A stretch of 64,000 bases of DNA from Perkinsela sp. CCAP 1560/9 (Eukaryota > Protista > Euglenozoa: Kinetoplastea), in contig CBFFSA010000001.1 of assembly GCA_965644495.1 (NCBI GenBank), forward strand, positions 620,001-684,000. Reading direction: 5' to 3'. Each line of letters begins with the position of its first letter. The stretch's first letter is position 1. Shown here piece after piece: positions 25,277 to 45,730 of this stretch. The notes below the pieces were generated by a model, which was not told where the DNA came from, searched no databases, and saw only the letters and a program-made list of their open reading frames with translations. The position numbers and the translations under genes were made by a program.

Positions 25277-25653
25277 GGGGGAGATTACAGGAAATAAGGT
25301 AGGAATGAGACTCAGTGATTTTGTCTTCTAACGAAAATAATTCGGAGGCACACAACGAAAAGCCGAAAAGTAAATCATTTTTTCTCCTTACAATGTTTTT
25401 CCCTTGTCTTCTGATAAATTTTTCTTTAACGTGGATCTCGTATGATGTATCGCCTGTGTTTCTACATAACGTACAAGGAAAGAAAAAGGAATGATTTGGG
25501 ATAATCAATGTGCATTTTTTTCGTTTTGTTGCATCATTAGTCAGTGGTTCATCGAGACTAACTCTTAAGCTGAAAATAGTAACGCACAGCATCATAAAAA
25601 GAAAATGCAATAAGGACAGCGCGCACAGGTGCATGTAATCTTCTTTTCAACAA

Positions 25654-26673
25654 CTATGAAAGCTCATAGTGGTACCCGAACATCTTTTTCATGCCCTCCC
25701 AGAAAACGTTCATCCACCCTTGTGAGATCCTTTCTTTTTCCATGAACGGAAATTCACTGTGTTCGAATTCCATCACAGTTTTCCCTTCCTCCCCCTCCTT
25801 CTCCTTTAACCTAATATGGACCATTGAATCCGGTGAGATCGGGTCCCAGGATTTCATACGGAGTTGCATTTTCACATTACACGGGGAGGTTGCCTCTATG
25901 ATTTTACCGGTCATCGCGCCATCCAGAAGAGACACCTCACCCCCGGGCTGGGGATCAATACGACAAGGCGCTCGGGTATAGGCACTCACTCTGCGCTGCT
26001 CCGTGAGACATTCATAAACCTCTGTCGGGCTACATTGCCACACTAAATGCATTTTGAGTGAAGTAGAATTTGGGAGCTTCTCCTCTTTCGATGGTTCGCC
26101 TCCTTTAGCTTCACTGGTCGTTGATTTTGCGGCTTCGCACGTTGCACGATTCGTCGACGACCGTGTTGGTAGATTTTGCACACCCATTAGATCGTTACGA
26201 ATGATCTGTTTCAGCATTTCGCGCAGACAAGGGACGGCTTCTTTTCGTACAAAGGAAAGGATGTCGTCTTCTGCGTCTCCACCAGAGGATTCCGCTTTCG
26301 TGACGCGGATTTCGTGTTCCTCTTCAAAATTTTGTGTGTCGCAATCGACAATTTTGAATCTACCCTTCAAGAGTTCATTGTCGTCTGATTTCGATTTTAC
26401 ACTCCAGCTGAGTTCAAAATTCATTTCAAAGAAACAAATTGGCTTTCCTTTCCGGCTCGCGACCGTAACCTCACCGTTAAATGCGGTTAACTCATGAGCC
26501 TGTACCACATAGCTATCCGACGCACAGAGCTCCCTATCTTTGAACTGTTGAGCGAGGTGTTCCTTCCAGTGCATTGTCTTGTCACGTTGCTCCCAGTGCC
26601 ACTCATTTACGTTGGCGCCATCCGTTCGGTCAGCAACAATCCAGCGAGGGTCTGCGTCACCCAGGCGTGCCAT
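25654..26673 (-). CDS. AHA1: Activator of Hsp90 ATPase AHA1
   Basis: MARLGDADPRWIVADRTDGANVNEWHW, RKGK, C-terminal AHSA1/START-like domain; ATG at 26673. Confidence 0.95.
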   Translation of the reverse strand: MARLGDADPRWIVADRTDGANVNEWHWEQRDKTMHWKEHLAQQFKDRELCASDSYVVQAHELTAFNGEVTVASRKGKPICFFEMNFELSWSVKSKSDDNELLKGRFKIVDCDTQNFEEEHEIRVTKAESSGGDAEDDILSFVRKEAVPCLREMLKQIIRNDLMGVQNLPTRSSTNRATCEAAKSTTSEAKGGEPSKEEKLPNSTSLKMHLVWQCSPTEVYECLTEQRRVSAYTRAPCRIDPQPGGEVSLLDGAMTGKIIEATSPCNVKMQLRMKSWDPISPDSMVHIRLKEKEGEEGKTVMEFEHSEFPFMEKERISQGWMNVFWEGMKKMFGYHYELS

Positions 26674-26953
26674 CGAAGGAACTAAGAAAACAGAAATATG
26701 CACTTGATCAGAAAATTGGTACACCGTGTATTAAAGCCGTAGTTTTACTTGAGAAGAAAAATTGCTATTGGTGAACGTAAAACTGGTAAAATGAAAAACA
26801 AAAAAATAGTCTATACCAAAGCGAAAAGCGTTGACCCGGATCTTACTCATTTTTTAGCTTTAGTTTACATGATTTTGTAGCACTCTATCTGTACTTAATA
26901 TTAGCTTCACTCCATTGTGCGTACAAAAAGAGTGCAACCCCGGTTTATTCCCT

Positions 26954-28171
26954 TTACTCCCCCTCCTGTTCTTCCACTCTAGAAGTCTGACACTCCACCC
27001 CTGGCCGGCACCTCCACCCGGTCTCCCTTTTTTCCAAATTATTCTCACTGCGCTCCTTCCCATGGACCACACAGACCTGTCGCACCGTAATCCGTGGATT
27101 CGAGACCTTACATTCCTGAGGAGCAACACAGTGCCACGTGTTACTCACCTCCTCATACCGTAAATAGTCCTTTCGTCGTTGTTTCTTGTGGGTCGTACAC
27201 AGCTCGGTGTCTTCTGCTTTGGTGAGGTCACTGGAGTGAGTCTTCCCCTCCCCGTTCCCCTCCCCCCCTCCTCCCCCCACCCCCGGGAGTCGACAGGTGA
27301 GCCCCTGCCGGCACACATAGGTGTTGGAATCCTCATCGAAGTTCAAGTGACTCACCCATCGTGATTTCCCGTGCACGGCACAGGTTTGCTTCACTTTGGC
27401 TAACCCGATCGGGTCGTGCTCTCTTTTGTTTTCCGCATTTCTTTGTTGCTGAAACACCAAACAGGCGTTTTCCGGTTTACAGTTCCATTGCTGCTTTTCG
27501 TTGTTAAACTCCAAGTAGTGTTCGTGTCGGATGCGGTCGTGGAGCGCACAGAGCTGCTGGGGGATGCGGGAGAGGCGTTTGTGGGGGGTATCGACCAGAC
27601 AGGCGTTCCCGGGTTTACATTTCCATGTGTTGGATACGGCACAGTGGGTCATTTTGTCCGCAATGCGCTCTTTGCCGTGGAGCGCGCAGACACGGCGGGA
27701 GATCGGGGGGGTGGGGTGGGGCATATTTTTTTGTGTATTTGATGATGAGGATGAGGATGCTGATTCTGTTATCGGAGATTCGGCGTCAGATTCGGCTAAA
27801 TTTGCATTTTCGTGTTCTTCTTCCTCTTCTTCTCCATTTTCGTATTCCTGTTCTTCATTTTCATCTTCTTGTGGCTGAGCAGCAGTGCGGGATGTGGCAT
27901 AAAAAGAATTTTGGGTGTGGAGAAGAGGAAAGGGGGTTGTGGTGAAATGAGCTCTGCGAGTAGCATTTGAAAAGAGAAGAAAGGATGAAATGGGGTAAAT
28001 GTTTCGGAGGGCATGAGGTGGAGAAATGGTCGGAGACTGTGTCGTAAGGAGAGCATGGTCTCGGACCAAAGCATTTACACTCAGGGAGCTATGTTTTGGA
28101 CAATGAACTCGTTTTGTGCAACGGGGGAGCCACGCTCTTGACGGAGGTGTGAAACGGCTGAGTAAAACCAT
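26954..28171 (-). CDS. Protein with 5 C-x2-H-x3-R..C-x5-C repeats, putative mitochondrial presequence
   Basis: CALHGKER..WKCKPGNAC, CALHDRIR..WNCKPENAC, CAVHGKSR..YVCRQGLTC, CTTHKKQR..WHCVAPQEC, CVVHGKER..WRCRPGVEC; N-terminus MVLLSRFTPPSRAWLPR, then an acidic linker. Confidence 0.8.
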   Translation of the reverse strand: MVLLSRFTPPSRAWLPRCTKRVHCPKHSSLSVNALVRDHALLTTQSPTISPPHALRNIYPISSFLLFSNATRRAHFTTTPFPLLHTQNSFYATSRTAAQPQEDENEEQEYENGEEEEEEHENANLAESDAESPITESASSSSSSNTQKNMPHPTPPISRRVCALHGKERIADKMTHCAVSNTWKCKPGNACLVDTPHKRLSRIPQQLCALHDRIRHEHYLEFNNEKQQWNCKPENACLVFQQQRNAENKREHDPIGLAKVKQTCAVHGKSRWVSHLNFDEDSNTYVCRQGLTCRLPGVGGGGGEGNGEGKTHSSDLTKAEDTELCTTHKKQRRKDYLRYEEVSNTWHCVAPQECKVSNPRITVRQVCVVHGKERSENNLEKRETGWRCRPGVECQTSRVEEQEGE

Positions 28172-28317
28172 GGGAAGAGTGAAAAAAAAGGATGTCAATG
28201 ATTTTAGAACGTCGTATAATAACGGGTGTTTACAATTTATGCTTGGCTTAGTATAATCATGTTCAATAATTCGATTGAAATTACGAACATCACGACTACA
28301 CTAAGAGTTCAAGATCC

Positions 28318-28647
28318 CTAGGACGGGTCTCTTACTTCCTCGTCGGTTGTGGAAGGTACCACTCGGTAATTTTTTCGACGAAACACAAGAGCGTTGCCCG
28401 TGTATGTTGTTCTCCATCGTGTAGGGGGAATGGCCGCTGGCCGTATTTCTGTTTCTATATCAGGTAAAGAGGTGAGAAAATTACACTCATCATTATATTC
28501 TACATCGGTGGGATCATAGCTTCGATCGAGACGGTATCGAAAATTCGTACCCTTCTGGCGGATTGTAGATTCAAACACCGGAGACGGATGAAAAGCACTG
28601 AGCAGAGTGGATGCACCGAGTGGACGGGTGTGAACAACTCTCCTCAT
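28318..28647 (-). CDS. Small hypothetical protein, likely mitochondrial
   Basis: ATG 28647, MRRVVHTRPLG presequence-like start, on the cluster strand. Confidence 0.55.
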   Translation of the reverse strand: MRRVVHTRPLGASTLLSAFHPSPVFESTIRQKGTNFRYRLDRSYDPTDVEYNDECNFLTSLPDIETEIRPAAIPPTRWRTTYTGNALVFRRKNYRVVPSTTDEEVRDPS

Positions 28648-28870
28648 TGACAGTATCACGTAAGAATGTGTATCTTAAAAACGAAATTAAAATGTTTTTT
28701 AAAGTAGGTAAACATATCGAAGCAAGAGCCCTCCTTTTAGAGACGACACCACGTTCGCTAATCTTACACTTTTTCTTTTTCAACAAAAATACCAGTATGT
28801 ACCGAGCATTCCGCGAAAAGTGCTCCAACTTCCCGCCAACTGAAACCCCCCCACCTGCCTCCCCACCCCC

Positions 28871-30361
28871 TCATTTCTTCTTCGTCCTCGCATCCAGCAC
28901 CCTCATCCTCAACCTCTCCACACTACTCTCCATCCCCGAGGTGTCCCCAAACACCGCCAGCGTCGGGGTGGCCTCAATCATCTCCCCGCACACGCCCCGA
29001 ATCCCCCCGAGCGTCACGGCGCGAACCCTCTCCGCCGCCTCCTCGAACCCCACCACCGAGGAGAACAGCAGCAGCCCGCGGCCGCACTCCTCCAGCTGCC
29101 CCAGCACCGTGTCGTTCACCAGGAACATCTGACTCAGCAGCAGCTGTTTCGCCATCTCCACGTGGTACTCACTGATGCGCTGGCCGACGGTGGCGAGTTG
29201 CTCCACCAGCACTCTTAGCAGGTGTTGGTTAAACGCGTGGGGGGCACTGCCGTAGAGCCCGAAGAGACCGGCGTCGGTGTAGGCCGCGGTGACGCACTCC
29301 ACCCCCGCGACCCAGGGCTCCCGGGCGACCACCTCGCGGTAGAGCTTCGTCAGCATCCCCTTCCCCGGGCCCCCGCTGCTGAAGCTCTGGCCCCCCCCGA
29401 GCAGGCACTGGGCGACGGCCAGGGTGAAGTAGCGGGGGTGGGCGTAGGTGGGGGCGGGGTAGAAGAGACCGAGGTGGGTGTGGCTCTTCTCGGCGAACTT
29501 GTCCACGGACTCCGGGGGGAGGGTGTTGTGGGCCATGGCAATGCCCCCGTGGTAGGGGGAGGGGGGGGGTGCGGCCGTTTTCGTGGCGTTCTCGCCTTTT
29601 TGAGCGGCCAAGGGAGAGAAAGACGCGGAGGTATCCCCGACCTCTCCCGCCTTCTCCCCCTTCCCCGTGGGCTCACCAAACACAAAACACTTCTCCACAT
29701 CCGCTACAAACGCGTTGTGGTCCGAGACCCCGGACCCGACCACGGTCATCCCCCCCGGGCTGACCCACTCCTTCGCAAAGTCGGCCAAAACGTTGGGGGT
29801 GATTTTCTCTAAGTCGCTGATTTCAAACAGCGCATTTCGCCCCAGCAGCTTCCCCCCAAACGCGGCCTGGTGCAACAGTTCAAAACACTGCCCGGTGGGG
29901 TCACGGGCGCGTGCGGGGATGGTTTGCGCGACGGACTGCTTGACATGTTCCAGAACCTCCGGGTCTTGGAAACTGGGAAAGACCAGGGCGCTGGAGAGGA
30001 GCTCAATCGCCTGGGGGGTGTAGTACCCCGGGCACTGCACGACGTAACTCACACACTCGCGGTGGTTGTTGATGGCGAGCGAGTTCCCCATAAAGCTGAG
30101 GTCCTCCGCGAGGTCGCCGGAGGGTATTTTGCGGTTCGAGTGGAAGAAGTATTTGTCGAAGAGGGCGCTGCACCCGGTGGTGGGGTCGCGCTCGCAGCGC
30201 ACCCCCATTTTGAGGAAGACCCCGACGGCGCTGAGGGCGCGGGTGTCGTCGTAGGAGAGCACGCGGAGGCCGTTGGGGAGGGTGGTGAGGGATTTGGGGA
30301 AGTGGGGAGGGGGGCGGGGAGGGGGTAGAGCACGGCGTAAAAAGGTGGAACGAAGGGACAT
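28871..30361 (-). CDS. PMPCA: Mitochondrial processing peptidase alpha subunit
   Basis: M16 fold start TTLPNGLRV; glycine-rich loop LGGGQSFSSGGPGKGM; no HXXEH. Confidence 0.93.
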   Translation of the reverse strand: MSLRSTFLRRALPPPRPPPHFPKSLTTLPNGLRVLSYDDTRALSAVGVFLKMGVRCERDPTTGCSALFDKYFFHSNRKIPSGDLAEDLSFMGNSLAINNHRECVSYVVQCPGYYTPQAIELLSSALVFPSFQDPEVLEHVKQSVAQTIPARARDPTGQCFELLHQAAFGGKLLGRNALFEISDLEKITPNVLADFAKEWVSPGGMTVVGSGVSDHNAFVADVEKCFVFGEPTGKGEKAGEVGDTSASFSPLAAQKGENATKTAAPPPSPYHGGIAMAHNTLPPESVDKFAEKSHTHLGLFYPAPTYAHPRYFTLAVAQCLLGGGQSFSSGGPGKGMLTKLYREVVAREPWVAGVECVTAAYTDAGLFGLYGSAPHAFNQHLLRVLVEQLATVGQRISEYHVEMAKQLLLSQMFLVNDTVLGQLEECGRGLLLFSSVVGFEEAAERVRAVTLGGIRGVCGEMIEATPTLAVFGDTSGMESSVERLRMRVLDARTKKK

Positions 30362-30804
30362 GGAGGGGGGAACGAAGGGGGAAATGTGATTTTTGGGGTG
30401 CTTTGGGGGGTAGAAAAGGGAAGAAGGGTGGGATAGGTGTTGTTGAAAGAAAACGAAGAGGACGGTTACACGGATTGATTAGAAAATGACACGCTCAACA
30501 TGTAGGATACATGTATAAAAGGTTTTGTGGAAGACTAAACCCCTCGACCTCGGAATGTAAAAAACAAATCGGCCCCATAACTCCTATTGGGTCATGAACT
30601 GCACCTTTCTAAAGCACCCTTGTGTTAAAACACACCCTGTCCTGTCTCTTCATCCAACCACACTCTATGTGGCAACAAAAAACGTTTTCAAAATTGACAA
30701 CTACCGTTATCGCACAGCAATGGACACCCAATTTGACAATGCACGCATTAAACGTAAAAAATTAAAATAACTTTCTTTTTATCCTCTCTACTCGATCCCC
30801 CCTT

Positions 30805-31494
30805 TCACTCCATCCTCCCTTCTCCTATCCCACTGGAAACCCTACACTGGGACGCGGGGTGACACCTCCAGCACTGCTCCGAGGCGAGATAGACCAAGTT
30901 CGCCTCACTCCGTACCTTACGGTGCAGTGCACACATAAACGACCGGCTCGGACCAGGAGGAGGAGGCGGAGGGTGCGCATGAGGTCCACGAGAACCCGAG
31001 GACCCATACCCCCCATAGGAGCTCGAATACGAGCCGGAGTACGAGCCCCCTGTACCCCCATAGGTACGCGGCCGGTACCCCCCCGTAGACTTACACACAC
31101 TCTCCGGGCGGCAGCGCCAGGTCCCGGCATAGTGGTCTTGTACCAAATTGCACACACTACGCTCTTTTCCGTGCAGGGAACACCTGAAGACCCCGTCCAT
31201 GGTGTAATCTTTTGCCTTCTTTTCCGTTTCATGACGACTTTCGTTATTCTTTTCATCGTTCTCCTCCTCATCGCCCTCTCGCCCGGTACTCGCGTGTCTC
31301 TTTCTTTGCTGTTCCCCCGGTGGGGTTTTACACAGGTGCTCCTCGGCACAGCGATACCCCCCGAGGTGGTGATCGAACCGAAGCACCTCGGGGTTACGGA
31401 CCTTGTCGTGAATCATGCAACGCTCTCGACGAAGGGAGGGGGGAGGGGAGACGGGGGACCAGGAGGTGTGGGGAGCGTCCGGGTGAGAGGACAT
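30805..31494 (-). CDS. Protein with 3 C-x2-H-x3-R..C-x5-C repeats and a Gly/Ser/Tyr-rich linker
   Basis: CMIHDKVR..YRCAEEHLC, CSLHGKER..WRCRPESVC, CALHRKVR..WRCHPASQC; YGGTGGSYSGSYSSSYGGYG linker. Confidence 0.75.
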   Translation of the reverse strand: MSSHPDAPHTSWSPVSPPPSLRRERCMIHDKVRNPEVLRFDHHLGGYRCAEEHLCKTPPGEQQRKRHASTGREGDEEENDEKNNESRHETEKKAKDYTMDGVFRCSLHGKERSVCNLVQDHYAGTWRCRPESVCKSTGGYRPRTYGGTGGSYSGSYSSSYGGYGSSGSRGPHAHPPPPPPGPSRSFMCALHRKVRSEANLVYLASEQCWRCHPASQCRVSSGIGEGRME

Positions 31495-31635: not shown

Positions 31636-32984
31636 AACCCCCCGTCACGATAAGTGACCATAGGCTAACTTTTGGTATATAAAGCCGTTTTAGCTAATTC
31701 TTGTTGCATTTTGCAGATCTCAGGCCCTAATATCTTGGGGTCACACACTTGGTACAAATTCTGAACACCTACACCTAGGGGGGGTCGCCTACCATTTTTT
31801 CACTTTTTCGCCATTTTTCTCAATACAAGCTTTCAGTCGCTTATTGAAGCTAAGAACCATATGATCCATAACCTCAGTAGGAATCTTGCTCCATGCATTC
31901 TTTACGCAATGGATAAGTGATTCGGTATTAGAAGGCAATTGCTCATCAACAAGTTCTTACATCATAGACCACACATTCTCTATGGGATTAAGGTCGGGTG
32001 AATTGTGGGGCCACGTTTCGATGAAGCTTATTCCTGAATTCAAAAAATACTGCTTAGTGGCCTTCGCTGTGTGAGCAGTGGCCCCATCTTGTTGAAAAAT
32101 ACGGTTAGAAGGTAGTGTTACACTTTTGAGCGTTTCTACGTAGGTTTTACTATTTATATTCGAAACAGGGAGGATGCGCAAGCATTTCCACCCGACCCCA
32201 ATCGCTCCCCAAACGTGAAACTTTTGGTGCCCAGCGTACTTTTTGTCTTGTGGATGGTTTTCCATTTGGACGTACCCACTGATTTCGCCTTGAGTCATTG
32301 GTGTCAAATATCTTTTCATCACTAAATATTACTTCTCCAGAGTGGCGCTTCCCTCTTAGCCATTTTTTACAAAACTTTACCCTTTTAATCATTTGTTTTT
32401 CAAATAAGCCTTGAGAAAGAGAACGCGCTTGGTAGTTCCATGCCAATTCTTTAAGATCCCTTTGCACAGTTCTTCTCCCCATTTTTATTCCTTTCCTGGC
32501 AAGTACAGCTACAATACGTCTGGGACTATTGTTCTTTGGTACCCCCCTTGCATCTGTATCCTGCAAGGCATTCTCAATTTCACATCTTCGTTTTTTCACC
32601 TCCGGACTTTCAGATTTCGGGGTGGAAGCCTCATAAGTCACAATTGGTTCTGCCAAGTAAGATCTCACAATTCGGCGACTAACATTAAATTCTTTTGCTA
32701 GTTTTCGCTTAGAAACACCGTCTTCGTGACGCAAACGAAGTATAAGCTTCCCTGCTTGCGTTAAACCCCCTTTAGGTAGGGAGAGTTTTCTTCTTCTCAT
32801 AAAAAAACTGTTTTTCAAGAAATCGATATTTTCAATTTTTTTAAAAATTTAGTTTCTCTAGGACAGAAAATAATAGCGGGAAACTGCAGAACGCGAAATT
32901 CTACACGAAACTATGGTATGTATACCCCCATACCCCACTCAACACAGATTTTAGCCTATGGTCACTTATTCGTGACGGGGGGTT
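31636..32984 (-). mobile_element. Full-length Tc1-family DNA transposon with inactivated transposase
   Basis: TIRs AACCCCCCGTCACGA(A)TAAGTGACCATAGGCTAA flanked by TA; HTH plus FSDEK / QQDGA / DLNPIENVW; frameshift near 32219 and premature stop at ~31957 (frame resumes to ~31789). Confidence 0.92.
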
Positions 32985-33326: not shown

Positions 33327-34877
33327 TCACCCCTCCCTCCCCCCTCCCCTCCCCAGCAACGCCCCCAGTGCCCCCAAATACCCATTATGCCGCGCGAAAC
33401 ACGCCCGTACCCCACTCCCCTCCCCCCAGTACGCCATCCCCTGACTCAGCCCCTGCCACACCACCACGTTGTTATGCACGAAACCCCCGGTGAAGTACAC
33501 ATTATCGATTTTCTCCAACCGACTGTGTAAATACGCCAGCTGCGTAATGTTCCCACACACCATCGTGAGCAGACTACGGACGTAGTCCGAGCGTGTGGGG
33601 GAGGAACCGGGGGAAGAGCCCGCTACCCCCTCCCCCATCTCCCCCCTCCACCTGCTCCCCACAGCAATCTTACCAAAGCTCGAGGCTAAGGTATGGGGTT
33701 TTAAATTCCCGGGAAGACTCCAGGGGGATTCATCATGGTTCCTCTTCTTATCCTCATGGTTCCTCTTCTTATCCTCATGGTTCCTATTCTTATCCCCATG
33801 ATTCCTCTTCTTATCCCCATAATTCCTCTTCTTATCCTCAGGGTTCTTCTTCCCATCCCCACGAGGCCGCTCCCCCCAGCCGTAGATATCCCCGACGGCC
33901 AGGTCCACCCTCGCGGGCTCCGCGGGGGCCCGGTCCCCGTCGTTCTGCAGGTCGAGCTGGTCCCAGGTGCGGGCCCCGGTGAGCAGCTGGCACAGCCCCC
34001 AGAACGTGCCGCCCCCGATCGCGGACCCGGAGAGGCGGGCGAAGTCCCCGTGGGCCGCGGAGGCGCATTTGAGAATGGAGACCCCGGAGCCGATGTGGAT
34101 GAGGAGGTAGGGCCAGGGGGAGGACGGGGAGGATGAAGAGTACGCTCTACCCGAAGAAGAAGAGTACGCTCTACCCGAAGAAGAAGAAGAAGAAGAGTAT
34201 GCTCTACTCGAAGGAGAGTACGCTCTACTCGAAGAAGAAGAGTACTCCCTACTCGAGGAAGAAGAGGAAGAAGAGGAAGCGTTCAAACTTTGAAGGGAAA
34301 AGGTTTTGGAGAAGGGGTTTGAATCCACAGGGGACGCCGAGGGGGAAGCCGGGGGGGAATCTTTAGGGGGGTGATGGGATGTACGCTGTGTTGGGGGGGG
34401 TACGGTGTAGTGAAAGATCTCCCCGGGAAAGGTTTTGAGTAAAAAATTAAGACCGCGGAGGATCGAGTGCATTTCGGGGTGGAGCTGGAGTGTGATGGAG
34501 AGGGTGTTGTGGATGAGGGGGGCGTATTTGTAGGCCCCGCCTCCCGTGCCGGGGATGTGGGAGACGTCGTGGAATTTTTCTTGTACATTGGAGTTCTTGA
34601 TAAAGGAGATAAACGCGGGCACTTTTTCTACAGGAAATTTAATAAACCGCAGATAGCCCGTAAAATTTTCGCGTGTGGTAGGAAAGTTCACCAGTTCGGC
34701 CGGCACAAAGAAATGAAGTTTCCGCCCAAGTTCAAAGCCAACAGTGGAGACATTTTCGGTGGTGCAGTACTCAGGTAGTTTCGGTGCGTTGGGTGGCTGA
34801 AAGAATACCATCTTACAACATGAACCACCGATATCGACAGCGCACGGAGCGCAAAACTTTTCGGAAGAAGTCTCCAC
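33327..34877 (-). CDS. PANK: Type II (fumble) pantothenate kinase
   Basis: VDIGGS, TGGGAYKY, PYLLIHIGSGVSILK, GGGTFWGL, LASSFGK, RHNGYLGALGA; start codon is GTG (see findings). Confidence 0.92.
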   Translation of the reverse strand: METSSEKFCAPCAVDIGGSCCKMVFFQPPNAPKLPEYCTTENVSTVGFELGRKLHFFVPAELVNFPTTRENFTGYLRFIKFPVEKVPAFISFIKNSNVQEKFHDVSHIPGTGGGAYKYAPLIHNTLSITLQLHPEMHSILRGLNFLLKTFPGEIFHYTVPPPTQRTSHHPPKDSPPASPSASPVDSNPFSKTFSLQSLNASSSSSSSSSREYSSSSSRAYSPSSRAYSSSSSSSGRAYSSSSGRAYSSSSPSSPWPYLLIHIGSGVSILKCASAAHGDFARLSGSAIGGGTFWGLCQLLTGARTWDQLDLQNDGDRAPAEPARVDLAVGDIYGWGERPRGDGKKNPEDKKRNYGDKKRNHGDKNRNHEDKKRNHEDKKRNHDESPWSLPGNLKPHTLASSFGKIAVGSRWRGEMGEGVAGSSPGSSPTRSDYVRSLLTMVCGNITQLAYLHSRLEKIDNVYFTGGFVHNNVVVWQGLSQGMAYWGEGSGVRACFARHNGYLGALGALLGRGGGREG

Positions 34878-35243
34878 TGAATCAGGTCGCGGAGCACTAC
34901 CCCTCTACAAGATTCTCAACGCACTACGGCGATAATGATATAGAAAACAAACGTAAAATTAACTACTCGAATGGTTTGCGTTCGCTGTTTTTTTAAAGGA
35001 AAAGGAAAACTTGTCTATGCAATAAAAGGATCTGTACCTCCTCCACACGTTACGTACGTATATGTACCCTTGTAGAACCCTTTTATGTTCATTAGCAAAC
35101 AGGGTAGAACAGTTCAGCACTACTGTTGCAGTGCTACTGTAACATACAAGTAAAAAACACGGCATACTATTCTTTGCCATGGCAAGTTCTGTACGTTAGA
35201 ATTATGGTTCTGTTAGGAGGTTCATTAAGATTTATCTCAGTGT

Positions 35244-36383
35244 TTACATTAGGATTTGTGGTTCTGACACAGATTGCGCCACACATTTATGCGGGAGAAT
35301 AACACAACCATTCAGGTAAAGCTCATCTTTCACTGTAACATCCGCAGCAAAGACACACCCAGAAACCAGTCGGCACCATCGTCCTACGTTGTTCTCCCAG
35401 CCAATAATGCTGGAAGACACGTAAGAACAATCACCAATGTGAGCGTTTCGGAAAATTGCAGACGACTCAATACGAACCCCTTTTCCAATGTTACATCCGG
35501 CCGCAATGGTAACATAGGGACCTATCACACTGTCCTCACCAATAGATACCGACGAGTCAATGAAACAAGGCGGAATAATTGTGTAGGGGTCCTTCTGCGA
35601 GCTGCGTACTCTGGAAAGAGGCTCACAGTGCTCCGTGATATGCCCCACGTTTTGAGTCTCATTTTGAACGTAGTCCAGGTACATTTTCATACCACACAAA
35701 TAGTCCGTTGGCTTCCCAATATCCATCCAAAACCCAGCCAATGGAAATGAATACAACCTTCCTTCGCGTGCTATCTCAGGAAACGTTTCTCTCTCTATGG
35801 ATGTATTTTTAATGGGAATGCGATCTACAACCCCTCCTTGAAGCAAGTATATGCCCGCATTGATTTCATTACCCACGAACTCTGTTGGCTTTTCTACAAA
35901 CCGCTTAACTTTACCCGACCCCGGTTCATTGACCACAACTCCGTATTGATTCCAGTTCTCAACCCGCTTCACTAGAATCGTCGCCTCAGCTTTGCGGTTA
36001 TAGTGGAAGCTTAGCATTTCTCTTAGTGGAAATTTGCATATCACGTCACTGTTCAGAACAAAAATGGGCTCCTTGCCGTCAGTACAAAGAAACCCATGAA
36101 ACTTTGCTAGCGCCAATGGACCTGCCGTACCCATAGGATACTTTTCTACAGAAAAAATAATTTGCACATTCAGTCGCTCAGACCAGACACCAATCGTCTT
36201 CTCAATTTCATCGGATTGGTAGGATAAAGCAAGAATGATCACGGTGACTCCTGCATCACGTAATGCAATCATTTGGTGAACCAGAATTGGAAGATTGCAA
36301 AAAGGTACGAGCGGCTTAGCCAGAGTTAATGTCAAGGGACGTAGTCGAGTGCCGTACCCTCCAACCAGTATTAATGCTTTCAT
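35244..36383 (-). CDS. GMPPB: Mannose-1-phosphate guanylyltransferase (GDP-mannose pyrophosphorylase)
   Basis: MKALILVGGYGTRLRPLT, LNSDVIC, FVEKP, FWMDIGKP, hexapeptide-repeat C-terminus. Confidence 0.96.
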   Translation of the reverse strand: MKALILVGGYGTRLRPLTLTLAKPLVPFCNLPILVHQMIALRDAGVTVIILALSYQSDEIEKTIGVWSERLNVQIIFSVEKYPMGTAGPLALAKFHGFLCTDGKEPIFVLNSDVICKFPLREMLSFHYNRKAEATILVKRVENWNQYGVVVNEPGSGKVKRFVEKPTEFVGNEINAGIYLLQGGVVDRIPIKNTSIERETFPEIAREGRLYSFPLAGFWMDIGKPTDYLCGMKMYLDYVQNETQNVGHITEHCEPLSRVRSSQKDPYTIIPPCFIDSSVSIGEDSVIGPYVTIAAGCNIGKGVRIESSAIFRNAHIGDCSYVSSSIIGWENNVGRWCRLVSGCVFAADVTVKDELYLNGCVILPHKCVAQSVSEPQILM

Positions 36384-36635
36384 CCAAAAAAGAACTAGAC
36401 AAACAACTTTAAAACTAAAAGCAAGAAAAGTAGTACCGTGCATAACACGCCTTACTTCGGTAACTACGTTTGCGTTGTCTATTATCGCGGTGGTTGTACC
36501 CCTCTAGCTTCGAGTCGAGGGCTTTGATTATTGAAAGAAAGTAGCGAACATAATGAAAAGCAAAAGAGTAACACGCTACAACTCCCAAAAATAAAACGAA
36601 AATAGATTTTGACTGATCTTTTCCCTTTTTTGCCC

Positions 36636-37090
36636 TTTCTGCGCATAAGAGAGCGTCCAGATTTCGTCAACACTCTCACCAGGCATGGATATTGGGAGCG
36701 CGACTTGAATGGAGGAGCACAACATAGCGGCTATTTGCTCAGTTCAGTGGAGGAAAAAAAAGCCGCTGTGTAATTCTTCGGAAGTTGGGGGACAAGAAAT
36801 TGGCAATTGTAGTCGAGGAGGTCACTTGTGCTCTGCAACGGTTCCAAGCTTTCAGCATCACGTACGACAATGGAACCGAGTTCGCGAAACACGAGCTAGT
36901 GAAGACAGCCCCTTCGTTGGGCTGTCAATCATTCTTTTGCAAGCCCTACGCAAATTGGGAGAAAGGCGGCGTTGAACATTTCAATGGTCTTGTCCGTGAT
37001 TTCTACTTTAAGCGAACAGTTTTCACCCACATCACGCGAACTGCGCTTGATGCGACATCTTCAGCCATCAACGAACGATCTGGAAAGCAG
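36636..37090 (+). pseudogene. IS30-family transposase relic
   Basis: IRERPDFV..GYWERD.., frameshift in an A-run at ~36755, then KSRCVILRKL..SITYDNGTEF..FFCKPYANWEKGGVEHFNGLVR. Confidence 0.8.
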
Positions 37091-37968: not shown

Positions 37969-38126
37969 GGACACTGTGCAAGTTTACCCTCTGTGGATGG
38001 CACAGGATGGCACGAAATGGCACAGGATGGCACGGCGAGTCTAGTTTTAGGAATCTTCATCCTCCTAAGTAGATCTTTAGAAAACAAAATATAGAATGTA
38101 ACATGAAGCTATTGCATTGGTGTTTG

Positions 38127-38178
38127 TCTTGCCACTCCGCCACCTCCGCTCTAGAGCGGAGGTGGCGGAGTGGCAAGA
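38127..38178. repeat. Perfect 52-bp palindrome
   Basis: TCTTGCCACTCCGCCACCTCCGCTCT|AGAGCGGAGGTGGCGGAGTGGCAAGA, no spacer. Confidence 0.95.
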
Positions 38179-38646
38179 ATTCAAAGTTTGAAGCACATGG
38201 TGCTCAGACGGCGAGTTCAAACCCGCTCATCGCAATATTCCCGGCGGCCTCACTCTAAGAGGCTGGGCTGATAACCGACTAGGCCCAGTACTCGGAGGAC
38301 CGTCCCGGACCCTCCCCTCGGGGAACCAGCTCCCTTACCCGGCTTACACCTCTTGGGTAAGCCGTGTTGACGTACAGTTCGTCGACGCAGTGTGTTGGTA
38401 ACAGCACGTTGGTGCCGCCTTGGACAAGCGGAAACTGGTAGAGCGGCCTCGGAACTTCCAAATCTGTCTGTGAAGGGTCTGGCTTGCCAGTGACCATCCG
38501 GAGCAATCCGGAATGATTTGGATTTTTTTTATTGGTGTTTGTAAATTGTTTCTACTGAGTATGAATGGCTTCTTCGTTTATAAGCGCGTTTTAAACTGAG
38601 ATTTTAAAAATGAGGGTAGTAGGTTTCATTTCTTCAAAACATTGAC

Positions 38647-39652: not shown

Positions 39653-40793
39653 ATGTCATCTAACCTTGGGGAGTTGACTGACTGTGGGCTCACACTTGCT
39701 TCGTTTCACCATTTAATTTATCAATGCGGTTTCGATCGCGATGTAGTAGACGCCTCGTTTACGTGGTTCTACAACGGTGCTAGATGGTCTTCTGCCGCCA
39801 AGTTTATGTCAAAAAGGGGTTGGTCGATCCGATCCTGTAAGGATACAATTCCCAATTTTTTTTATGAACTTTACACAAAGCTGAGTGAGAAATGGCTTCT
39901 GAACCCCAGCGACGAGATGTTAAACCATCCGAACAATACAACCTTTGGTTTCTGGCCGCCGGATGTAAAGGTGTTGATAGACACTGTTCCCATCTACATG
40001 TATGTGGATGCAAGACCTGGGTGTTATAACCCAAAGTACCGAGGAACACGTACTCAAAGCTATGGTAGGGCGCACGTTGACAGGGTACGTTTGTTTTTTT
40101 GGGGATGGCTTGTATTGTGGCGCTTCATCTGATTCTGTCATTCAGGATTGTGGTGTACTTCGCTTTGTTTCTTCTCGCGGAATTAGAGCTTTGGCAGATG
40201 GAGGATTTTACGAATGTCAAAGAATCATAACTCCACACGCCAAAACGCATATATGGCCTTCTTTGCAGGCGAACAAGCCTATTTCTGATTACGTTCGCGA
40301 AGCAGATGTAAAACTTGCGTACAATGAGTCCTTATCTCATTTTCGCGCTCGTGTCGAGAATATTTTCAGCCGCTCTTGCACAGGCAGGTGGTTAGCATTC
40401 CGAAATTGGACTAAATTTTCAGATTCTCTTTTGTACTATAGTTTTGCATATCGTTTGATAATTCATAATCTGGAGGTGTATTTACGTCAAGAGTGGGGAG
40501 GTAAATATTCTCCTTTTACACCGGAACGAGTCCGAATTCTAGAATGTAAAGTAAAGGAGCATAAAGCACAATCTTCCCGCTACTCTAATCCTCTCATGCA
40601 AAAAAAGCGAGGTCGTAGTGATGAAGAATTGAAACAAACTAACTTAGACCGTTTCATTGTTTATGATAAGAATTGTGCGGAAATAACGGCTTCTTCTGAT
40701 TCTCTTCAACAGACAATCCTCGAGTCAGATCCAATATATGAACTCCCATTATTGAACTTCCCATTACCCCTCCCCGGCTCACTCTTTAAGTGA
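39653..40793 (+). mobile_element. PIF/Harbinger (ISL2EU-like) DDE transposase with one frameshift
   Basis: LIDTVPI..YNPKYRG / HVLK..GASSD..LADGGF..YNESLSHFRARVENIF; one extra base at ~40045 joins ORFs 39653..40132 and 40002..40793. Confidence 0.8.
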
Positions 40794-41251
40794 GCTTTTT
40801 TCCCTTGAGACTTCCCCTTGAGTACCGCTGTGCGTGACTCTGCCTCGTGTTATCGTTCCAAATGCCCCTTGGTGCGACATCCGTTGTGGGCGGATCATGT
40901 GCCGATGATATCGACCGTCGCATTAAGGGGAATATCTCTGCGCCAATGAGCGTATGATAAACAAGGTCCACCCGTGAGGGTGTTCATGCATATATTGGAT
41001 TTGCACAAATTTTCCACGATTGCTGGCCTGATTATAGGTGTCGTTGAGATCTTTGTAGGAGGCATTGACCGGGATTGCGGATGACCGAGAAGATTAGTTG
41101 ATATATTGTGTGATGTGTTAGGATGGGTGCAGATTTAAATTGCGGTGCCGCAGATTTTCAGACGTTAATGAACATGCCATCCTGCCTATTTATCGGTGGA
41201 GTCCGATTTTGCGAGTCAGACTGCCTGGTGACAGAGTTATTGTAACGCAAA

Positions 41252-41356
41252 TAAGCCCCAGTTCCCTTCTCGGGAACCGGGGCCTTCAAGCGAACTTAGA
41301 GTTCGAAGCTTCTCATACCAACAAGGTACAGAAACTGTATCTTTATCGTTAAAGTT
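41252..41356 (-). ncRNA. Spliced leader RNA gene, copy 1
   Basis: AACTTTAACGATAAAGATACAGTTTCTGTACCTTGTTG|GTATGAGAAGCT carries the kinetoplastid SL core CAGTTTCTGTAC and donor TTG/GTATG; exon 41356..41319; two downstream hairpins; 3' end estimated. Confidence 0.95.
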
Positions 41357-41449
41357 AACAAGGGCTTTACCAACCACCAGAGCTCATTGTTCGCTTTTGT
41401 CAAACTGATGAACTTGTTGTTCCACGAGTCTTAGCCCAAAATGCAACCT

Positions 41450-41530
41450 GGAAACTTGTCTAGTGGCAGGGCGTGCTTTTCTGAGACTGACGAACCAAAC
41501 TCCTGGTTCGATTCCCGCCCCGTCAATTTT
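41450..41530 (+). promoter_or_regulatory. tRNA-like Pol III A-box/B-box module, divergent from SL copy 1
   Basis: A box TTGTCTAGTGG 41456..41466, B box GGTTCGATTCC 41505..41515, T4 at ~41527; no cloverleaf pairing. Confidence 0.7.
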
Positions 41531-41548
41531 CGCTTATTGTAACGCAAA

Positions 41549-41653
41549 TAAGCCCCAGTTCCCTTCTCGGGAACCGGGGCCTTCAAGCGAACTTAGAGTT
41601 CGAAGCTTCTCATACCAACAAGGTACAGAAACTGTATCTTTATCGTTAAAGTT
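41549..41653 (-). ncRNA. Spliced leader RNA gene, copy 2
   Basis: Identical to copy 1; exon 41653..41616. Confidence 0.95.
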
Positions 41654-41746
41654 AACAAGGGCTTTACCAACCACCAGAGCTCATTGTTCGCTTTTGTCAA
41701 ACTGATGAACTTGTTGTTCCACGAGTCTTAGCCCAAAATGCAACCT

Positions 41747-41827
41747 GGAAACTTGTCTAGTGGCAGGGCGTGCTTTTCTGAGACTGACGAACCAAACTCC
41801 TGGTTCGATTCCCGCCCCGTCAATTTT
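41747..41827 (+). promoter_or_regulatory. tRNA-like Pol III A-box/B-box module, divergent from SL copy 2
   Basis: A box 41753..41763, B box 41802..41812. Confidence 0.7.
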
Positions 41828-41830
41828 CGC

Positions 41831-41910
41831 AACACGTGGCAAACTGTAGCCATGTGCTGAATGTCAAAACACTTGCACGGAGGTTCGATCCTCAGCCCGT
41901 GTGACCTTTT
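41831..41910 (+). other. Second type of tRNA-like element
   Basis: D-like arm TGGC..GCCA, arm GTGC..GCAC with oversized loop, T-like arm GAGG-TTCGAT-CCTC, then T4; acceptor stem poor. Confidence 0.5.
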
Positions 41911-42042
41911 CGAATGATAAAAACCCCGGAAGCCACTGCGCTAGCGTAAACATGGTGAGTAGCGCCTCTGTGGGACACTCAGGATGAGGCAGATTGTCGT
42001 GGAAAATATTTCTTTCATAGTGGGGATTTCACAAGTCACGCC

Positions 42043-42161
42043 GGGTACGACCATACTACGGTGAAAACACCACATCCCGTTCGCTTTGTGAAGTTAAGCA
42101 CCGTCAGGCTCAGTTAGTACTGAGGTGAGCGATCGCTCGGGAACCCTGAGTGTTGTACTCT
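42043..42161 (+). rRNA. 5S rRNA
   Basis: GGGTACGACCATAC...TTTGTGAAGTTAAGC...GTTAGTAC...GTGTTGTACTCT, 119 nt, trypanosome-like ends, T5 run at the 3' end. Confidence 0.97.
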
Positions 42162-42769
42162 TTTTAAATGCAAGAGGAATCAGGTGGTGAGGTTTCGACG
42201 ACCTTTCACGACGTTTCACGAGATTTTCTTCAATGTCGTCTTTGCCTCTCTCACCTCAAGGGCCTAGTTGCGTTTCGAATCGGCATTGACTCCTCGGGAC
42301 GCTGTGATTTTTACGTACGGCTTTATAATACAGGGCGCATAGATGCCTTTGTATGTATGAATGTATGTAAAACAGGCGGTTACCCTTGTTCAATGATGTC
42401 GCCTCCCCTGAGAAAGCAGGGAAACTTGGAGGAAAGTGCCTGGTCGCTGAACGGTCGATACTCTGTGGAGTATCGATATGGCATAGGTGCCTTTACATCC
42501 CCATACTCCCCGTCAGGAAGTGCGGTGCCACGCTACTGGAGCAGGTGGTGGGATGGATGTAACGTCTGCAAACCAAGGAAGCGGAATCCTCTGGCATCGA
42601 GAGGTGTCACCTTGCTGCTGCGGTGTATCGAACAGATAGCCTAACACACGTAAGCTCCCATCTAAGGAAGATTTCCGTTTACTGATCGACCCACAACGCA
42701 TTCGGAGGTTTTCCCCCGCAGACAAAGGTGTGGTCAGAAGCGTTCCGCGTATTCGAAGCCGGGGCACCC

Positions 42770-43705
42770 GCACCCTTATCTGTCATAGAAACTCGCACCC
42801 TTATCTGTCATAATGCACCCTTATCTGTCATACTGCACCCTTATCTGTCATAATGCACCCTTATCTGTCATACTGCACCCTTATCTGTCATAATGCACCC
42901 TTATCTGTCATACTGCACCCTTATCTGTCATATAAGCCGCACCCTTATCTGTCATACTGCACCCTTATCTGTCATAATACATTTTTTGTTAATTTTCTGT
43001 GAATGACGGTGGAAGGTAGAGTCAGCACACGCATCGACTCAACTCATCGGTCGCATATCGCATTGTTATATCTCTGTCATTCTTTTTCGCGTCTACAGCT
43101 CCGGTTTTTTCTCTCTTTATGATATCTAGACCTTGTCGTATCTGGGATTTCCGTGGTTTGTCTCGGTGTCGCCCAATACAACTGAGCATCACCTAGGGCT
43201 TCGCAAATTGCTTCCCACGAACTCAGCGTCACACTTTGACGTGACTCATTGGCCCGGCCGGCCCCTCCGTGCGTTCGGCCTCTCATTTCCCCCAAAACAA
43301 CTACCACCTTCCCCCCATTTATCAGGGGTCGCTCGCGCGACCGCAGCTAAATAGGGGGGGAAGGTGGTAGTTGTGGGGTATGGAGGCCTCTCGCAACTCC
43401 GGGGCCTCACCGGGACCACAATTGAGGCTACCTATTTTTTACGTTAACTGTGTAGCAAAATTGTAAATTTTTGGAAGGGGTTGAATTTTTTTTTAGGGGT
43501 TGAAATCATTTTTAGGCCTTGAAATTTTTTTTAAGGGGTCGACTTTTTTTAATCGGTTTATGGCAGATAAGGGTGCGGCTTATATGACAGATAAGGGTGC
43601 GGCTTATATGACAGATAAGGGTGCAGTATGACAGATAAGGGTGCAGTATGACAGATAAGGGTGCATTATGACAGATAAGGGTGCATTTATGACAGATAAG
43701 GGTGC
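42770..43705. mobile_element. Foldback-like element bounded by inverted tandem arrays
   Basis: 10 copies of GCACCCTTATCTGTCATA (42770..42976) and 7 inverted copies (43559..43705) around ~580 bp with no convincing ORF. Confidence 0.75.
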
Positions 43706-43752
43706 GAGTGGGCGGTCGTACGCATCGGTGAAATATTCCGAGCCTTCGGCCC

Positions 43753-45730
43753 CTGGCAAACGCCTTCGGTTCCGTCCCACATGAAATAATTATCACAGTA
43801 CTAAAAAGGGCTCATATCGACCCAGTTATTATCCATTACCTCCGAAAGCTCTATGAGAATGCAGAAATACAGCTCAAGCTGGAATCCGGACTTACAGAAC
43901 CAATCAACGTACATATTGGAGTACTCCAGGGCGACACGCTTTCACCAATTTTATTTAACCTTGTGATGGAAACCATAATACGTTACGTTCGCAAGGCACG
44001 CCCCACTTTCGGGTACCATGACGGCCAGGACTCTCATTTCTGCAAAGCGTTTGCCGACGACGTGACTTTCCTTACGCAAACTCCGACGCAAGCACAAGAA
44101 GTCTCTGAAATCTTCGAAACTGCGCTCTCTTCCCTACTTATGAAGCCTAACACCTCAAAATGTCGCGTCTACTGCTTGGGACAAAGCACACACCGTGGAT
44201 TCACTACGCTCTCTCCTAAGCTTGTCCTTCGTAGCGAGGAGATCCCGCATATAGCTCACAAGGGTACGAAGTTCTTGGGTATGATATTGTCAACCGGAAG
44301 AAGCACACCCCGAGTGGTCTTTGATGAAATGCGGAAAAGGTTACGTACAATGATGACCCGCATCGACCAGAGCAAGCACGCGATACATGCACGTATGTGG
44401 ATGTACGAAAATGCGGTGTTATCCAGAATGCGCTATCTTCTCACTGTACATGACGGGCTTACACTCAATCTCATCAAAAGACTACAGAAAACGTGCAGCC
44501 GCTTCCTGCGAAAATGGGTCAACCTTGCAGCATACGCACACCCCGACCAGCTCTACATCAAAAATGGGGGATGGGGACTAACATCAATGACCCAACTCTG
44601 GCGCGAATGCACCGTCTCCTGTCTTGCGACTCTCCAGTCTTCTTCGGATATAGTCACACAACACGTATTAGAAGGGCGCATGGAATGGGAGAAAACTCTT
44701 GACTCCGCACACCACCACAGACCCGCTATCCTCGCAGCCGACCGACTTCATGACAAACAGAGCACCAGAGCTTGGGTCCGCCGATACACCGAAAACGAGC
44801 TGATAGCTGAGTATCGTCGCCGCGCTCCCGTCGCAGCTAAATGGTTTAGTGAGGAGACAGATGCTGAGTTAGCTGAGGATTTTGCGCGAGCTCTGCACAA
44901 TATACATGGAAAAGAACTCTCTCGGTTTACCTCGATGGTCATGACCAGTTACGCCCCGCCGAGCCTATCTAACTCACGTGCATGGGGGAAGGCTGATGGA
45001 CACGTCATCTGTCCGATCTGTCGTGAAAGGAAGCAAACCTTACGACATGTCCTAACCAGCTGTACAACATCTCTCTTACAAGGCCGTTATACATACCGAC
45101 ACAATATGATTTTGAAGGTCCTACTAGACACGCTTCGAAGTTGTGGTCACATACGAGCAATGTCTTTTGATCTACCTGGCAACCCCTCCGAGGAGCACCC
45201 ACCATCATGGCTAGCAAACTTTAGCACACTACGACCAGATGGGTGGATTCTCCTAGAAGATGGCTCAGAATACATCATTGAACTCACCTCCCCGTGGGAA
45301 GAAAATTTTGATCAAGCCCGCGAACGAAAGCGCGCAAAGTACGAGGAGATTTTGCGCTACCGACAGGCAACAAACGTACGCACGAGCCTCATAACATTTG
45401 AGGTCGGAGCTCGGGGCAAACTTAGCGATAGTACGCTCGATCTTTCCTGGGTATTCCCAAAAGATCATAAACACCACGTTCGCAAAATGCGTGAAAACTT
45501 TGCCCTTACTGCACTTCAGGCTTCATTTAGGCTATATACTATGCGACAGAACCCCACCTGGAACCCACCACAAACAGCTTGAGTAGGAAAATCTCTTTCG
45601 GAACAAGATCCTGATCTTTGCGAGGACTATCCGGAGTGAAAATCTCTAGTGTACAGGGACCTGGTGAGCGGGTCCGTTAGCTCACGGACCGGGCTTGCTT
45701 GGCGCATGGAAAATGAAAATCAAAAAAAAA
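43753..45730 (+). mobile_element. 5'-truncated non-LTR retrotransposon with RT, CCHC knuckle and restriction-like endonuclease (HERO/NeSL-like)
   Basis: Frame opens at LANAFGSVPH (43753), GVLQGDTLSP, FADD, KFLG, CPIC..H..C, QGRYTYRHN, RPD..IELT.PWEE..K..KY; stop 45582; 3' UTR ending in an A-run at ~45730. Confidence 0.92.

What the first reader, a model, noticed from the sequence alone, without database searches (positions are those of the whole stretch)
41237..41830. SL RNA genes with a Pol III snRNA-type promoter layout (divergent tRNA-like A/B boxes at about -100)
Seen: each 297-bp unit holds an SL RNA gene (minus strand, +1 at 41356/41653) and a head-to-head module with an A box at -100 to -110 and a B box GGTTCGATTCC near -150 that does not fold as a tRNA. 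Known: trypanosomatid SL RNA is made by Pol II from a SNAPc promoter, while their U snRNA and 7SL genes are Pol III genes driven by A/B boxes of a divergent tRNA or tRNA-like gene roughly 95-100 bp upstream. Inference: this lineage may transcribe SL RNA by Pol III, or by a TFIIIC-assisted hybrid promoter, which would need a different route to the mRNA cap. Caveat: the SL gene ends in TTATTT, not a clean T4-T5 terminator.
Basis: partly seen in the sequence, partly recalled or inferred. Interest (0 to 1): 0.9.

Follow-up and report, generated by a model that had tools for sequence, protein, structure and literature searches.

The report
Spliced-leader gene with tRNA-like promoter
In a distant relative of trypanosomes, the gene for the short leader RNA that such organisms splice onto their messenger RNAs sits head-to-head with a broken tRNA gene at the same 100-base spacing that the neighbouring 5S rRNA gene shows, so it is likely copied by RNA polymerase III rather than polymerase II, a switch that is still untested.

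Summary
Observation confirmed. The window is from a prokinetoplastid close to Perkinsela. Each SL RNA gene has a head-to-head tRNA-like module: A box at -100, B box at -149, broken cloverleaf. New: the adjacent 5S rRNA gene has its own, unrelated head-to-head module with its A box at exactly -100 too, giving SL<- mod1-><-mod2 5S->. These three are the only strict A+B pairs in the window. Read depth suggests a uniform multi-copy unit; the module is not a dispersed SINE. The 297-bp doubling was not bridged by any contig and adds no evidence. None of 31 SL gene copies from three other euglenozoan sources has the module. The layout matches the trypanosomatid Pol III snRNA promoter (A box at 104-106). 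TTATTT after the last hairpin fits a class of non-canonical Pol III terminators. Best reading: Pol III makes this SL RNA (0.55); polymerase not tested, no close relative's SL gene found. The scan earlier noted antisense B boxes at a Perkinsus-type SL gene and judged them passengers.

The parts
41249..41356 (-). SL RNA gene, copy 1 (exon 41356-41319, GT donor, stem-loops II and III, TTATTT at 41254-41249); the 3' end is inferred
   Evidence: loose ends at the exon end
41449..41530 (+). tRNA-like module 1, copy 1: A box 41456-41466 (-100 to -110), B box 41505-41515 (from -149), D stem intact, acceptor stem broken, internal T4 and trailing T4
41546..41653 (-). SL RNA gene, copy 2 (exon 41653-41616, TTATTT at 41551-41546)
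   Evidence: loose ends at 41653 and 41616
41746..41827 (+). tRNA-like module 1, copy 2: A box 41753-41763, B box 41802-41812
41866..41950 (-). tRNA-like module 2, head-to-head with the 5S gene: perfect A box 41943-41933 (-100 from 5S +1), 5-bp anticodon stem with CAT loop (41916-41914), B box GGATCGAACCT 41891-41881 (-152), acceptor stem broken (2 of 7), internal T5. Its B box also reads as a B box on the + strand (41882).
42043..42161 (+). 5S rRNA gene, followed by a canonical T5 run
   Evidence: Rfam RF00001, 99.2 bits
41237..41830 (.). Exact 2 x 297-bp tandem duplication (SL gene + module 1); junction not bridged in any of 4 runs
40757..42813 (.). Approximate extent of the apparently multi-copy SL-module-module-5S unit (right end not fixed)
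   Evidence: contigs and depth

Best explanation
The SL RNA gene of this prokinetoplastid has a decayed tRNA gene head-to-head 100 bp upstream, and this module likely acts as an extragenic A/B-box promoter that would make RNA polymerase III, not polymerase II, copy the SL RNA. Shown: the SL gene, the two boxes and their positions, the broken cloverleaf, a second unrelated module at the same -100 spacing in front of the 5S gene, and the presence of both in the majority contigs of four runs. Inferred: TFIIIC binds the boxes and places TFIIIB between the two heads, as proposed for trypanosomatid U snRNA genes; Pol III starts at the AACU +1 and stops at TTATTT just after stem-loop III; the RNA is then capped without Pol II, by a route like the one that caps Pol III-made U snRNAs in trypanosomes (recalled), and donates its 38-nt exon to mRNAs. 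The modules carry internal T4/T5 runs, so they are predicted to be promoter elements rather than sources of tRNA.
For: (1) Only three strict A+B pairs in 64 kb, all divergent and at exactly -100 from a small-RNA start; chance about 3e-5 per 11-bp slot. (2) One of the served genes is 5S rRNA, a Pol III gene; modules 1 and 2 are unrelated in sequence (62 of 500 shuffles score as well), so the shared spacing is not a copy of one element. (3) Boxes kept, acceptor stems lost (3 of 7 and 2 of 7 pairs). (4) Trypanosomatid U2: non-cloverleaf tRNA-like element, A box 104-106 bp and B box 150 bp upstream, A-B gap 30-44 nt, both boxes needed (PMC4950102); here -100/-149, gaps 38 and 41. (5) No differences listed between 41097 and 41964 in 4 of 4 runs, single contigs across both modules in 3 of 4. 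(6) The only T2VT3 motif in the first 300 nt is at +103 to +108, directly after stem-loop III; background about 5%; T2VT3 is among the most efficient non-canonical classes tested with human Pol III (PMC3141230). (7) 0 of 31 SL copies from three other euglenozoan sources have a divergent pair, and the window's -99..-1 region resembles none of five such upstream regions.
Against: No polymerase, factor-binding or transcript-end data. No T4 run until +751, whereas the 5S gene next door has T5. The A box is about 5 bp (half a helical turn) closer than in trypanosomatids and has one mismatch; an alternative register at -105 breaks the invariant A. In trypanosomatids SL RNA is the textbook Pol II gene with co-transcriptional capping (PMC6597758; PMC8311971), and TFIIIB/TFIIIC subunits show some occupancy at Pol II SL loci there, so boxes need not mean Pol III. 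T. brucei Tau95 was not found on 5S genes, so the 5S control is itself untested. Uniformity among copies can come from concerted evolution, and contigs drop rare variants. Lack of T4 inside the SL RNA is uninformative (72% of shuffles lack it). A SNAPc element at -60 would diverge too fast to be excluded. No relative within Prokinetoplastina was compared.
Confidence: 0.55

Rival explanations
1. Pol II still makes the SL RNA from a proximal SNAPc-type element; the tRNA-like module binds TFIIIC/TFIIIB and only helps, by keeping chromatin open, insulating the gene or sharing TBP.
For: Pol II/SNAPc is the tested state in trypanosomatids. An indirect chromatin role is one of the two models even for trypanosomatid snRNA genes. 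Brf1 and, weakly, Tau95 are found at Pol II SL loci. No canonical Pol III terminator. Cap formation is simplest with Pol II.
Against: An indirect helper would not obviously need the same base-exact spacing as the 5S module. Pol II SL genes in trypanosomatids end in oligo-dT tracts, as the metakinetoplastid-like array L137 does; this gene has none, so it fits the Pol II pattern no better. No similarity to five outgroup SL upstream regions (weak).
Confidence: 0.25
2. Both modules are decayed tRNA genes carried as passengers in a homogenised SL-5S repeat and do nothing for the SL gene.
For: SL, 5S and tRNA genes cluster often: L126 holds an SL gene amid intact tRNA genes with one co-directional upstream; Leishmania 5S genes are linked to tRNA genes. 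An earlier scan note reached this verdict for a Perkinsus-type SL repeat (unchecked). Concerted evolution explains uniform copies.
Against: Two unrelated passengers would have to land head-to-head at the same -100 position from two different gene starts, within 5 bp of the functional trypanosomatid spacing, and keep their boxes while losing their stems.
Confidence: 0.15
3. The module is a SINE head or the point of the locus is an assembly artefact; or this gene is a silent SL pseudogene and the active SL genes lie elsewhere.
For: The genome has a high-copy tRNA-like repeat at 38156-38530. The 297-bp doubling is unbridged. Perkinsela has hundreds of SL fragments. No RNA contig covering the SL intron was listed.
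Against: Depth over the modules equals that of the SL intron and 5S, on one unbranched contig in 3 of 4 runs; no similarity to the SINE head (241 and 169 of 500 shuffles) or to other window DNA. The exon of this very sequence is joined at its exact 3' end to other U-rich sequences in DNA runs and in run X12, and no second intron type following GT was listed among the loose ends shown.
Confidence: 0.05

Closest known systems
Trypanosomatid U snRNA / U3 / 7SL promoter (A and B boxes of a divergent tRNA or tRNA-like gene; L. major and T. brucei U2, PMC4950102; U3, PMC2784804)
   Same: Head-to-head tRNA-like element that does not fold as a cloverleaf; B box near -150; A-B gap within 30-44 nt; gene start about 92 bp from the tRNA-like start (93-105 bp reported for U3).
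   Different: Serves an SL RNA gene and a 5S gene instead of a U snRNA; A box at -100, not 104-106; no T tract at the SL 3' end; multi-copy; function not tested.
Trypanosomatid SL RNA gene (Pol II, SNAPc/TBP promoter, tandem array, oligo-dT terminator; PMC6597758)
   Same: AACU start, conserved exon core, GTATG donor, three stem-loops, many copies (by depth).
   Different: 38-nt exon, no U-rich Sm site, no dT tract, tRNA-like module upstream.
SL RNA-5S rRNA linked repeats of Euglenozoa (Euglena, PMC2784804; Papus, PMC7859406; L137 here)
   Same: SL and 5S genes in one repeated unit.
   Different: Here the genes are divergent with two tail-to-tail tRNA-like modules between them; in Euglena and L137 they are co-directional, and L137 has no A/B pair.
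Leishmania 5S rRNA genes linked to tRNA genes (PMC6562600)
   Same: 5S gene beside a tRNA-derived sequence in a lineage where TFIIIA has not been found (PMC10781861).
   Different: Here the partner is a decayed, Met(CAT)-like relic at fixed -100; the passages I read do not show that Leishmania 5S genes depend on their tRNA neighbours.
Perkinsela sp. CCAP 1560/4 SL RNA gene (PMC5601477)
   Same: Nearest named lineage; genome holds many exon-only SL relics, as the runs here suggest.
   Different: One intact gene assembled there, different exon ends; its upstream sequence was not visible to me (supplementary note PDF too large to read).

Membership tests
Kinetoplastid SL RNA gene | About 39-nt exon starting AACU with conserved core, followed by GT donor | tested here: met
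   38 nt; same core as SL arrays in L118-L138
Kinetoplastid SL RNA gene | Three stem-loop fold with donor in stem-loop I | tested here: met
   z = -6.19
Kinetoplastid SL RNA gene | Exon found joined to other sequences at the donor site | tested here: met
   loose ends at exactly 41319/41616 in X1, X3, X4 and X12; in DNA runs these are likely retroposed relics, X12 being RNA is a guess; no joint to a gene of this window was listed
Kinetoplastid SL RNA gene | U-rich Sm site between stem-loops II and III | tested here: not met
   5-nt linker UUGAA; Perkinsela lacks several Sm proteins
Trypanosomatid Pol II SL transcription unit | Proximal SNAPc element | tested here: inconclusive
   no similarity to five outgroup upstream regions, but such elements diverge and copies here are too alike to footprint
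Trypanosomatid Pol II SL transcription unit | Downstream oligo-dT tract | tested here: not met
   first T>=4 at +751
Trypanosomatid Pol III snRNA-type promoter | Divergent tRNA or tRNA-like sequence with A and B boxes | tested here: met
Trypanosomatid Pol III snRNA-type promoter | A box 104-106 bp upstream | tested here: inconclusive
   best register -100 (same as at the 5S gene); weaker register -105; literature value
Trypanosomatid Pol III snRNA-type promoter | A-B gap 30-44 nt | tested here: met
   38 and 41 nt
Trypanosomatid Pol III snRNA-type promoter | T>=4 terminator after the gene | tested here: not met
   only T2AT3 at +103, a non-canonical class in human Pol III
Trypanosomatid Pol III snRNA-type promoter | Boxes and an intragenic 5' element needed for transcription by Pol III | not testable with these tools
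   needs mutagenesis, run-on and ChIP
Functional tRNA gene | Cloverleaf with intact acceptor stem and no internal T4 | tested here: not met
tRNA-derived SINE | Dispersed copies away from SL genes | tested here: not met
   flat depth and unbranched contigs over the modules; no other window match; no whole genome was available

The most novel reading that the evidence does not exclude
This prokinetoplastid lineage has moved both its SL RNA gene and its 5S rRNA gene onto one extragenic tRNA-relic promoter type with a shared -100 spacing, so that every mRNA cap in the cell is first built on a Pol III transcript and the only discrete Pol II promoter known in kinetoplastids has been dropped.
Probability: 0.4. 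Interest if true: 0.9.

Novelty: new variant of a known kind. Interest (0 to 1): 0.72.

Why it matters
The SL gene holds the one discrete Pol II promoter of trypanosomatids and is the source of all mRNA caps. A lineage that makes it with Pol III would break the link between Pol II and mRNA capping, would show that the kinetoplastid Pol II-to-Pol III switch of U snRNAs can reach the SL RNA too, and would predict loss or relaxation of SL-specific Pol II factors. The mirror-image 5S module also offers a testable answer to how kinetoplastids make 5S rRNA when no TFIIIA has been found. My searches listed no paper describing either layout, but the library lacks most subscription and older papers.

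Tried and rejected
No whole genome is held, so other SL copies, U snRNA genes, SNAPc and capping enzymes could not be searched. The one metagenome scan used too short a pattern: 0 of 117 loci held an SL gene with exon plus GTATG donor (one flagged row, L049, is a chance match). The viral scan gave 1 locus, a chance match. Rfam found no SL or tRNA model in the region. ARAGORN at lowered thresholds calls both modules, but also 13 (ps85), 36 (ps80) and 217 (ps70) sites window-wide, so it is not evidence; the Met(CAT) label for module 2 rests on its 5-bp stem and loop, and the likeness of module 1 to a Glu-type and module 2 to an initiator tRNA is recalled, not tested. Folding of the modules and spacers was not significant (z -0.1 to -2.3). 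Absence of T4 in the SL RNA was rejected as evidence. A shared motif between SL and 5S spacers was not found (243 of 500 shuffles). No RNA holder of the stretch was listed; X12 showed no listed contig over the SL intron or modules; neither blank is evidence. The GMPPB search did not resolve the lineage. Earlier-findings look-ups by place returned nothing. PMC3101222, PMC3795323 and PMC4615557 passages said nothing on the polymerase of SL genes. The Perkinsela supplementary note on SL genes could not be read and may bear on novelty.

Full report
Organism. The window holds long intron-free ORFs mostly on one strand. The mitochondrial processing peptidase alpha at 28871-30361 has its best hits in an unnamed record (P0121, 57%), Perkinsela sp. 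CCAP 1560/4 (54%), two further unnamed records, and the PhM-4 and PhF-6 transcriptomes (50%), against about 36% for trypanosomatids. A tree of 28 rows (27 of the 95 hits, chosen by me, plus the window) puts it with P0121 (97/89), next to the Perkinsela clade (88/83, not starred), inside a Prokinetoplastina group of 8 rows (100/99). This is one gene; genus is not settled.

Observation. The two 297-bp units are identical. Each has an SL RNA gene on the minus strand with +1 at 41356 or 41653, a 38-nt exon and a GTATG donor. The 109-nt RNA folds far better than shuffles (z = -6.19, 0 of 200). Contigs from public runs leave the sequence exactly at the exon end (41319/41616) into U-rich sequence in X1, X3, X4 and X12, and at 41653 in X1 and X2, which supports both boundaries. 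In X12 (RNA is a guess) two exon-bearing contigs have depth 1448 and 1181 against 4-11 for five coding pieces. In the DNA-like runs such pieces are probably retroposed relics, as reported for Perkinsela (PMC5601477, passages; supplementary tables). On the opposite strand an A box lies at -100 to -110 and a B box from -149. The module keeps a 4 of 4 D stem but only 3 of 7 acceptor pairs and has an internal T4; neither ARAGORN at default nor Rfam calls a tRNA.

A 5S rRNA gene lies at 42043-42161 on the plus strand. It has its own head-to-head module on the minus strand: a perfect A box whose first base is at 41943, exactly -100 from the 5S start, a 5-bp stem with a CAT loop, and a B box at -152; acceptor 2 of 7, internal T5. 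The unit is therefore SL<- module 1-> <-module 2 5S->. The two modules are not related in sequence (62 of 500 shuffles score as well). With at most one mismatch in the A box and none in the B box, the 64 kb window has pairs only at these three modules; Markov sequences give 0.17 per 64-kb strand (30 trials). Relaxing the B box by one mismatch adds six other sites on the plus strand, against 2.8 expected per strand. The patterns are recalled consensus, fixed after I had seen the sequence, so the figures are guides.

Copies. In one search depth over 41656-42300 is 65 (X1), 580 (X3) and 1372 (X4), against 0-3, 0-19 (one outlier bin of 1802) and 13-53 over the coding bins 22400-31031 and 33688-37007. 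The tool warns that this is no copy number; I read it as tens of copies. Single contigs span both modules and the 5S gene in X1, X2 and X3 with two differences each, none in the boxes; X4 is in pieces; no difference is listed between 41097 and 41964. These four runs are one study and may include the source of the window. The modules show no extra depth or branching, so they are not a dispersed SINE; the high-copy tRNA-like repeat at 38156-38530 is unrelated. No contig bridges the junction of the two 297-bp units and the bin 41392-41465 is empty in 4 of 4 runs; contigs drop rare variants, so the doubling is either local or an artefact.

Outgroups. A scan of prokaryote genome contigs returned 21 loci from three assemblies that carry euglenozoan SL arrays, evidently misbinned. 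Two look diplonemid and one metakinetoplastid by exon sequence (recalled labels). Of 31 distinct SL copies (27, 1 and 3), none has a divergent A/B pair within the upstream sequence held (260 bp for 30 copies, 119 for one); five have a co-directional pair. In two sources, different copies stay alike only over about -65 to -1, the pattern of a proximal promoter. So the layout is not general to Euglenozoa. No prokinetoplastid SL gene was found, so conservation is untested.

Comparison with known promoters. In trypanosomatids all snRNAs are Pol III products driven by A and B boxes of a divergent tRNA or non-cloverleaf tRNA-like element, A box 104-106 bp and, for L. major U2, B box 150 bp upstream, gap 30-44 nt (PMC4950102, passages and Discussion; PMC2784804, passages). 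The window matches in orientation, decay pattern, B position and gap, and differs by about 5 bp at the A box. SL RNA there is Pol II/SNAPc, capped co-transcriptionally by Cet1/Cgm1, ending in oligo-dT (PMC6597758, PMC8311971, passages). TFIIIA has not been found, Tau95 binds U2's tRNA-like promoter but not 5S, and Tau95 and Brf1 show some signal at SL loci (PMC10781861, PMC7920299, passages). SL-5S linkage is known in Euglena and Papus and 5S-tRNA linkage in Leishmania (PMC6562600, passages). PMC11613528 (passages and supplement search) gave no SL promoter data.

Termination and cap. There is no T4 until +751, while the 5S gene ends in T5; this counts against Pol III, but equally against the trypanosomatid Pol II pattern. 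The single T2VT3 motif in the first 300 nt is at +103, right after stem-loop III (background about 5%). In human Pol III, T2VT3 is among the most efficient non-canonical classes tested, though sub-optimal (PMC3141230, passages); no kinetoplastid data were seen. That trypanosome Pol III-made U snRNAs carry guanosine-derived caps is recalled; I saw only reference titles pointing that way, and that m7G capping there does not need CTD phosphorylation.

Verdict. The feature is real and more ordered than first reported. I put Pol III transcription through the tRNA-relic promoter at 0.55, Pol II with TFIIIC help at 0.25, passenger relics at 0.15, SINE/artefact/pseudogene at 0.05. It works like the trypanosomatid snRNA promoter but fails its T-tract feature and is off by 5 bp, so I do not file it as a member. 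Searches listed no report of a Pol III-type SL promoter; most of those hits I saw only as listings, and older and subscription papers are missing. An earlier scan note on a Perkinsus-type SL repeat with antisense B boxes supplied the passenger rival; I did not test it. Interest 0.72; new variant of a known kind.

Noticed in passing
window 38156-38531 (+): High-copy tRNA-derived SINE-like element: A box at 38163, B-like box at 38214, T8 tail, with a perfect palindrome of about 25 bp per arm at its 5' end (about 38126-38177). Depth far above the SL unit in X1, X3, X4. A Pol III-type SINE in a kinetoplastid would be unusual (recalled). One X1 contig joins it to the end of module 1 (table 5c).
   Followed up: partly
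window 43800-45582 (+): Non-LTR retrotransposon remnant (RVT_1 hit) about 2 kb beyond the 5S gene; the C-terminal part looks by eye like a zinc knuckle plus restriction-like endonuclease.
   Followed up: no
window 42770-42978 and 43557-43706: 20-bp tandem repeats in inverted orientation around a 580-bp spacer, high depth in the runs; possibly a foldback-type element.
   Followed up: no
window 32150-32800, 40002-40793, 61222-62190: DNA-transposon ORFs (Tc1/mariner-like HTH and DDE_3; DDE_Tnp_4) in a kinetoplastid genome.
   Followed up: no
window 40757-40964: Short repeat family with many variant contigs at the left edge of the SL-5S unit; 40803-40855 matches 62792-62844.
   Followed up: no
L118-L138: Three bacterial genome assemblies contain euglenozoan SL RNA arrays with 5S, U1, U2, U5, U6, SRP RNA or tRNA genes: eukaryotic contamination. 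In L118-L136 the U2, U5, U6 and 5S genes tested have no divergent A/B pair either.
   Followed up: partly
L015, L017, L039, L047, L054, L056, L060, L066, L088: Metagenome contigs with kinetoplastid-type SL exon relics not followed by a GT donor.
   Followed up: no
window 41619-41653 region, runs X2, X3, X4, X12: The same SL exon piece (+6 to +38) with one shared foreign upstream flank appears in four runs: a genomic SL relic elsewhere in the genome.
   Followed up: no
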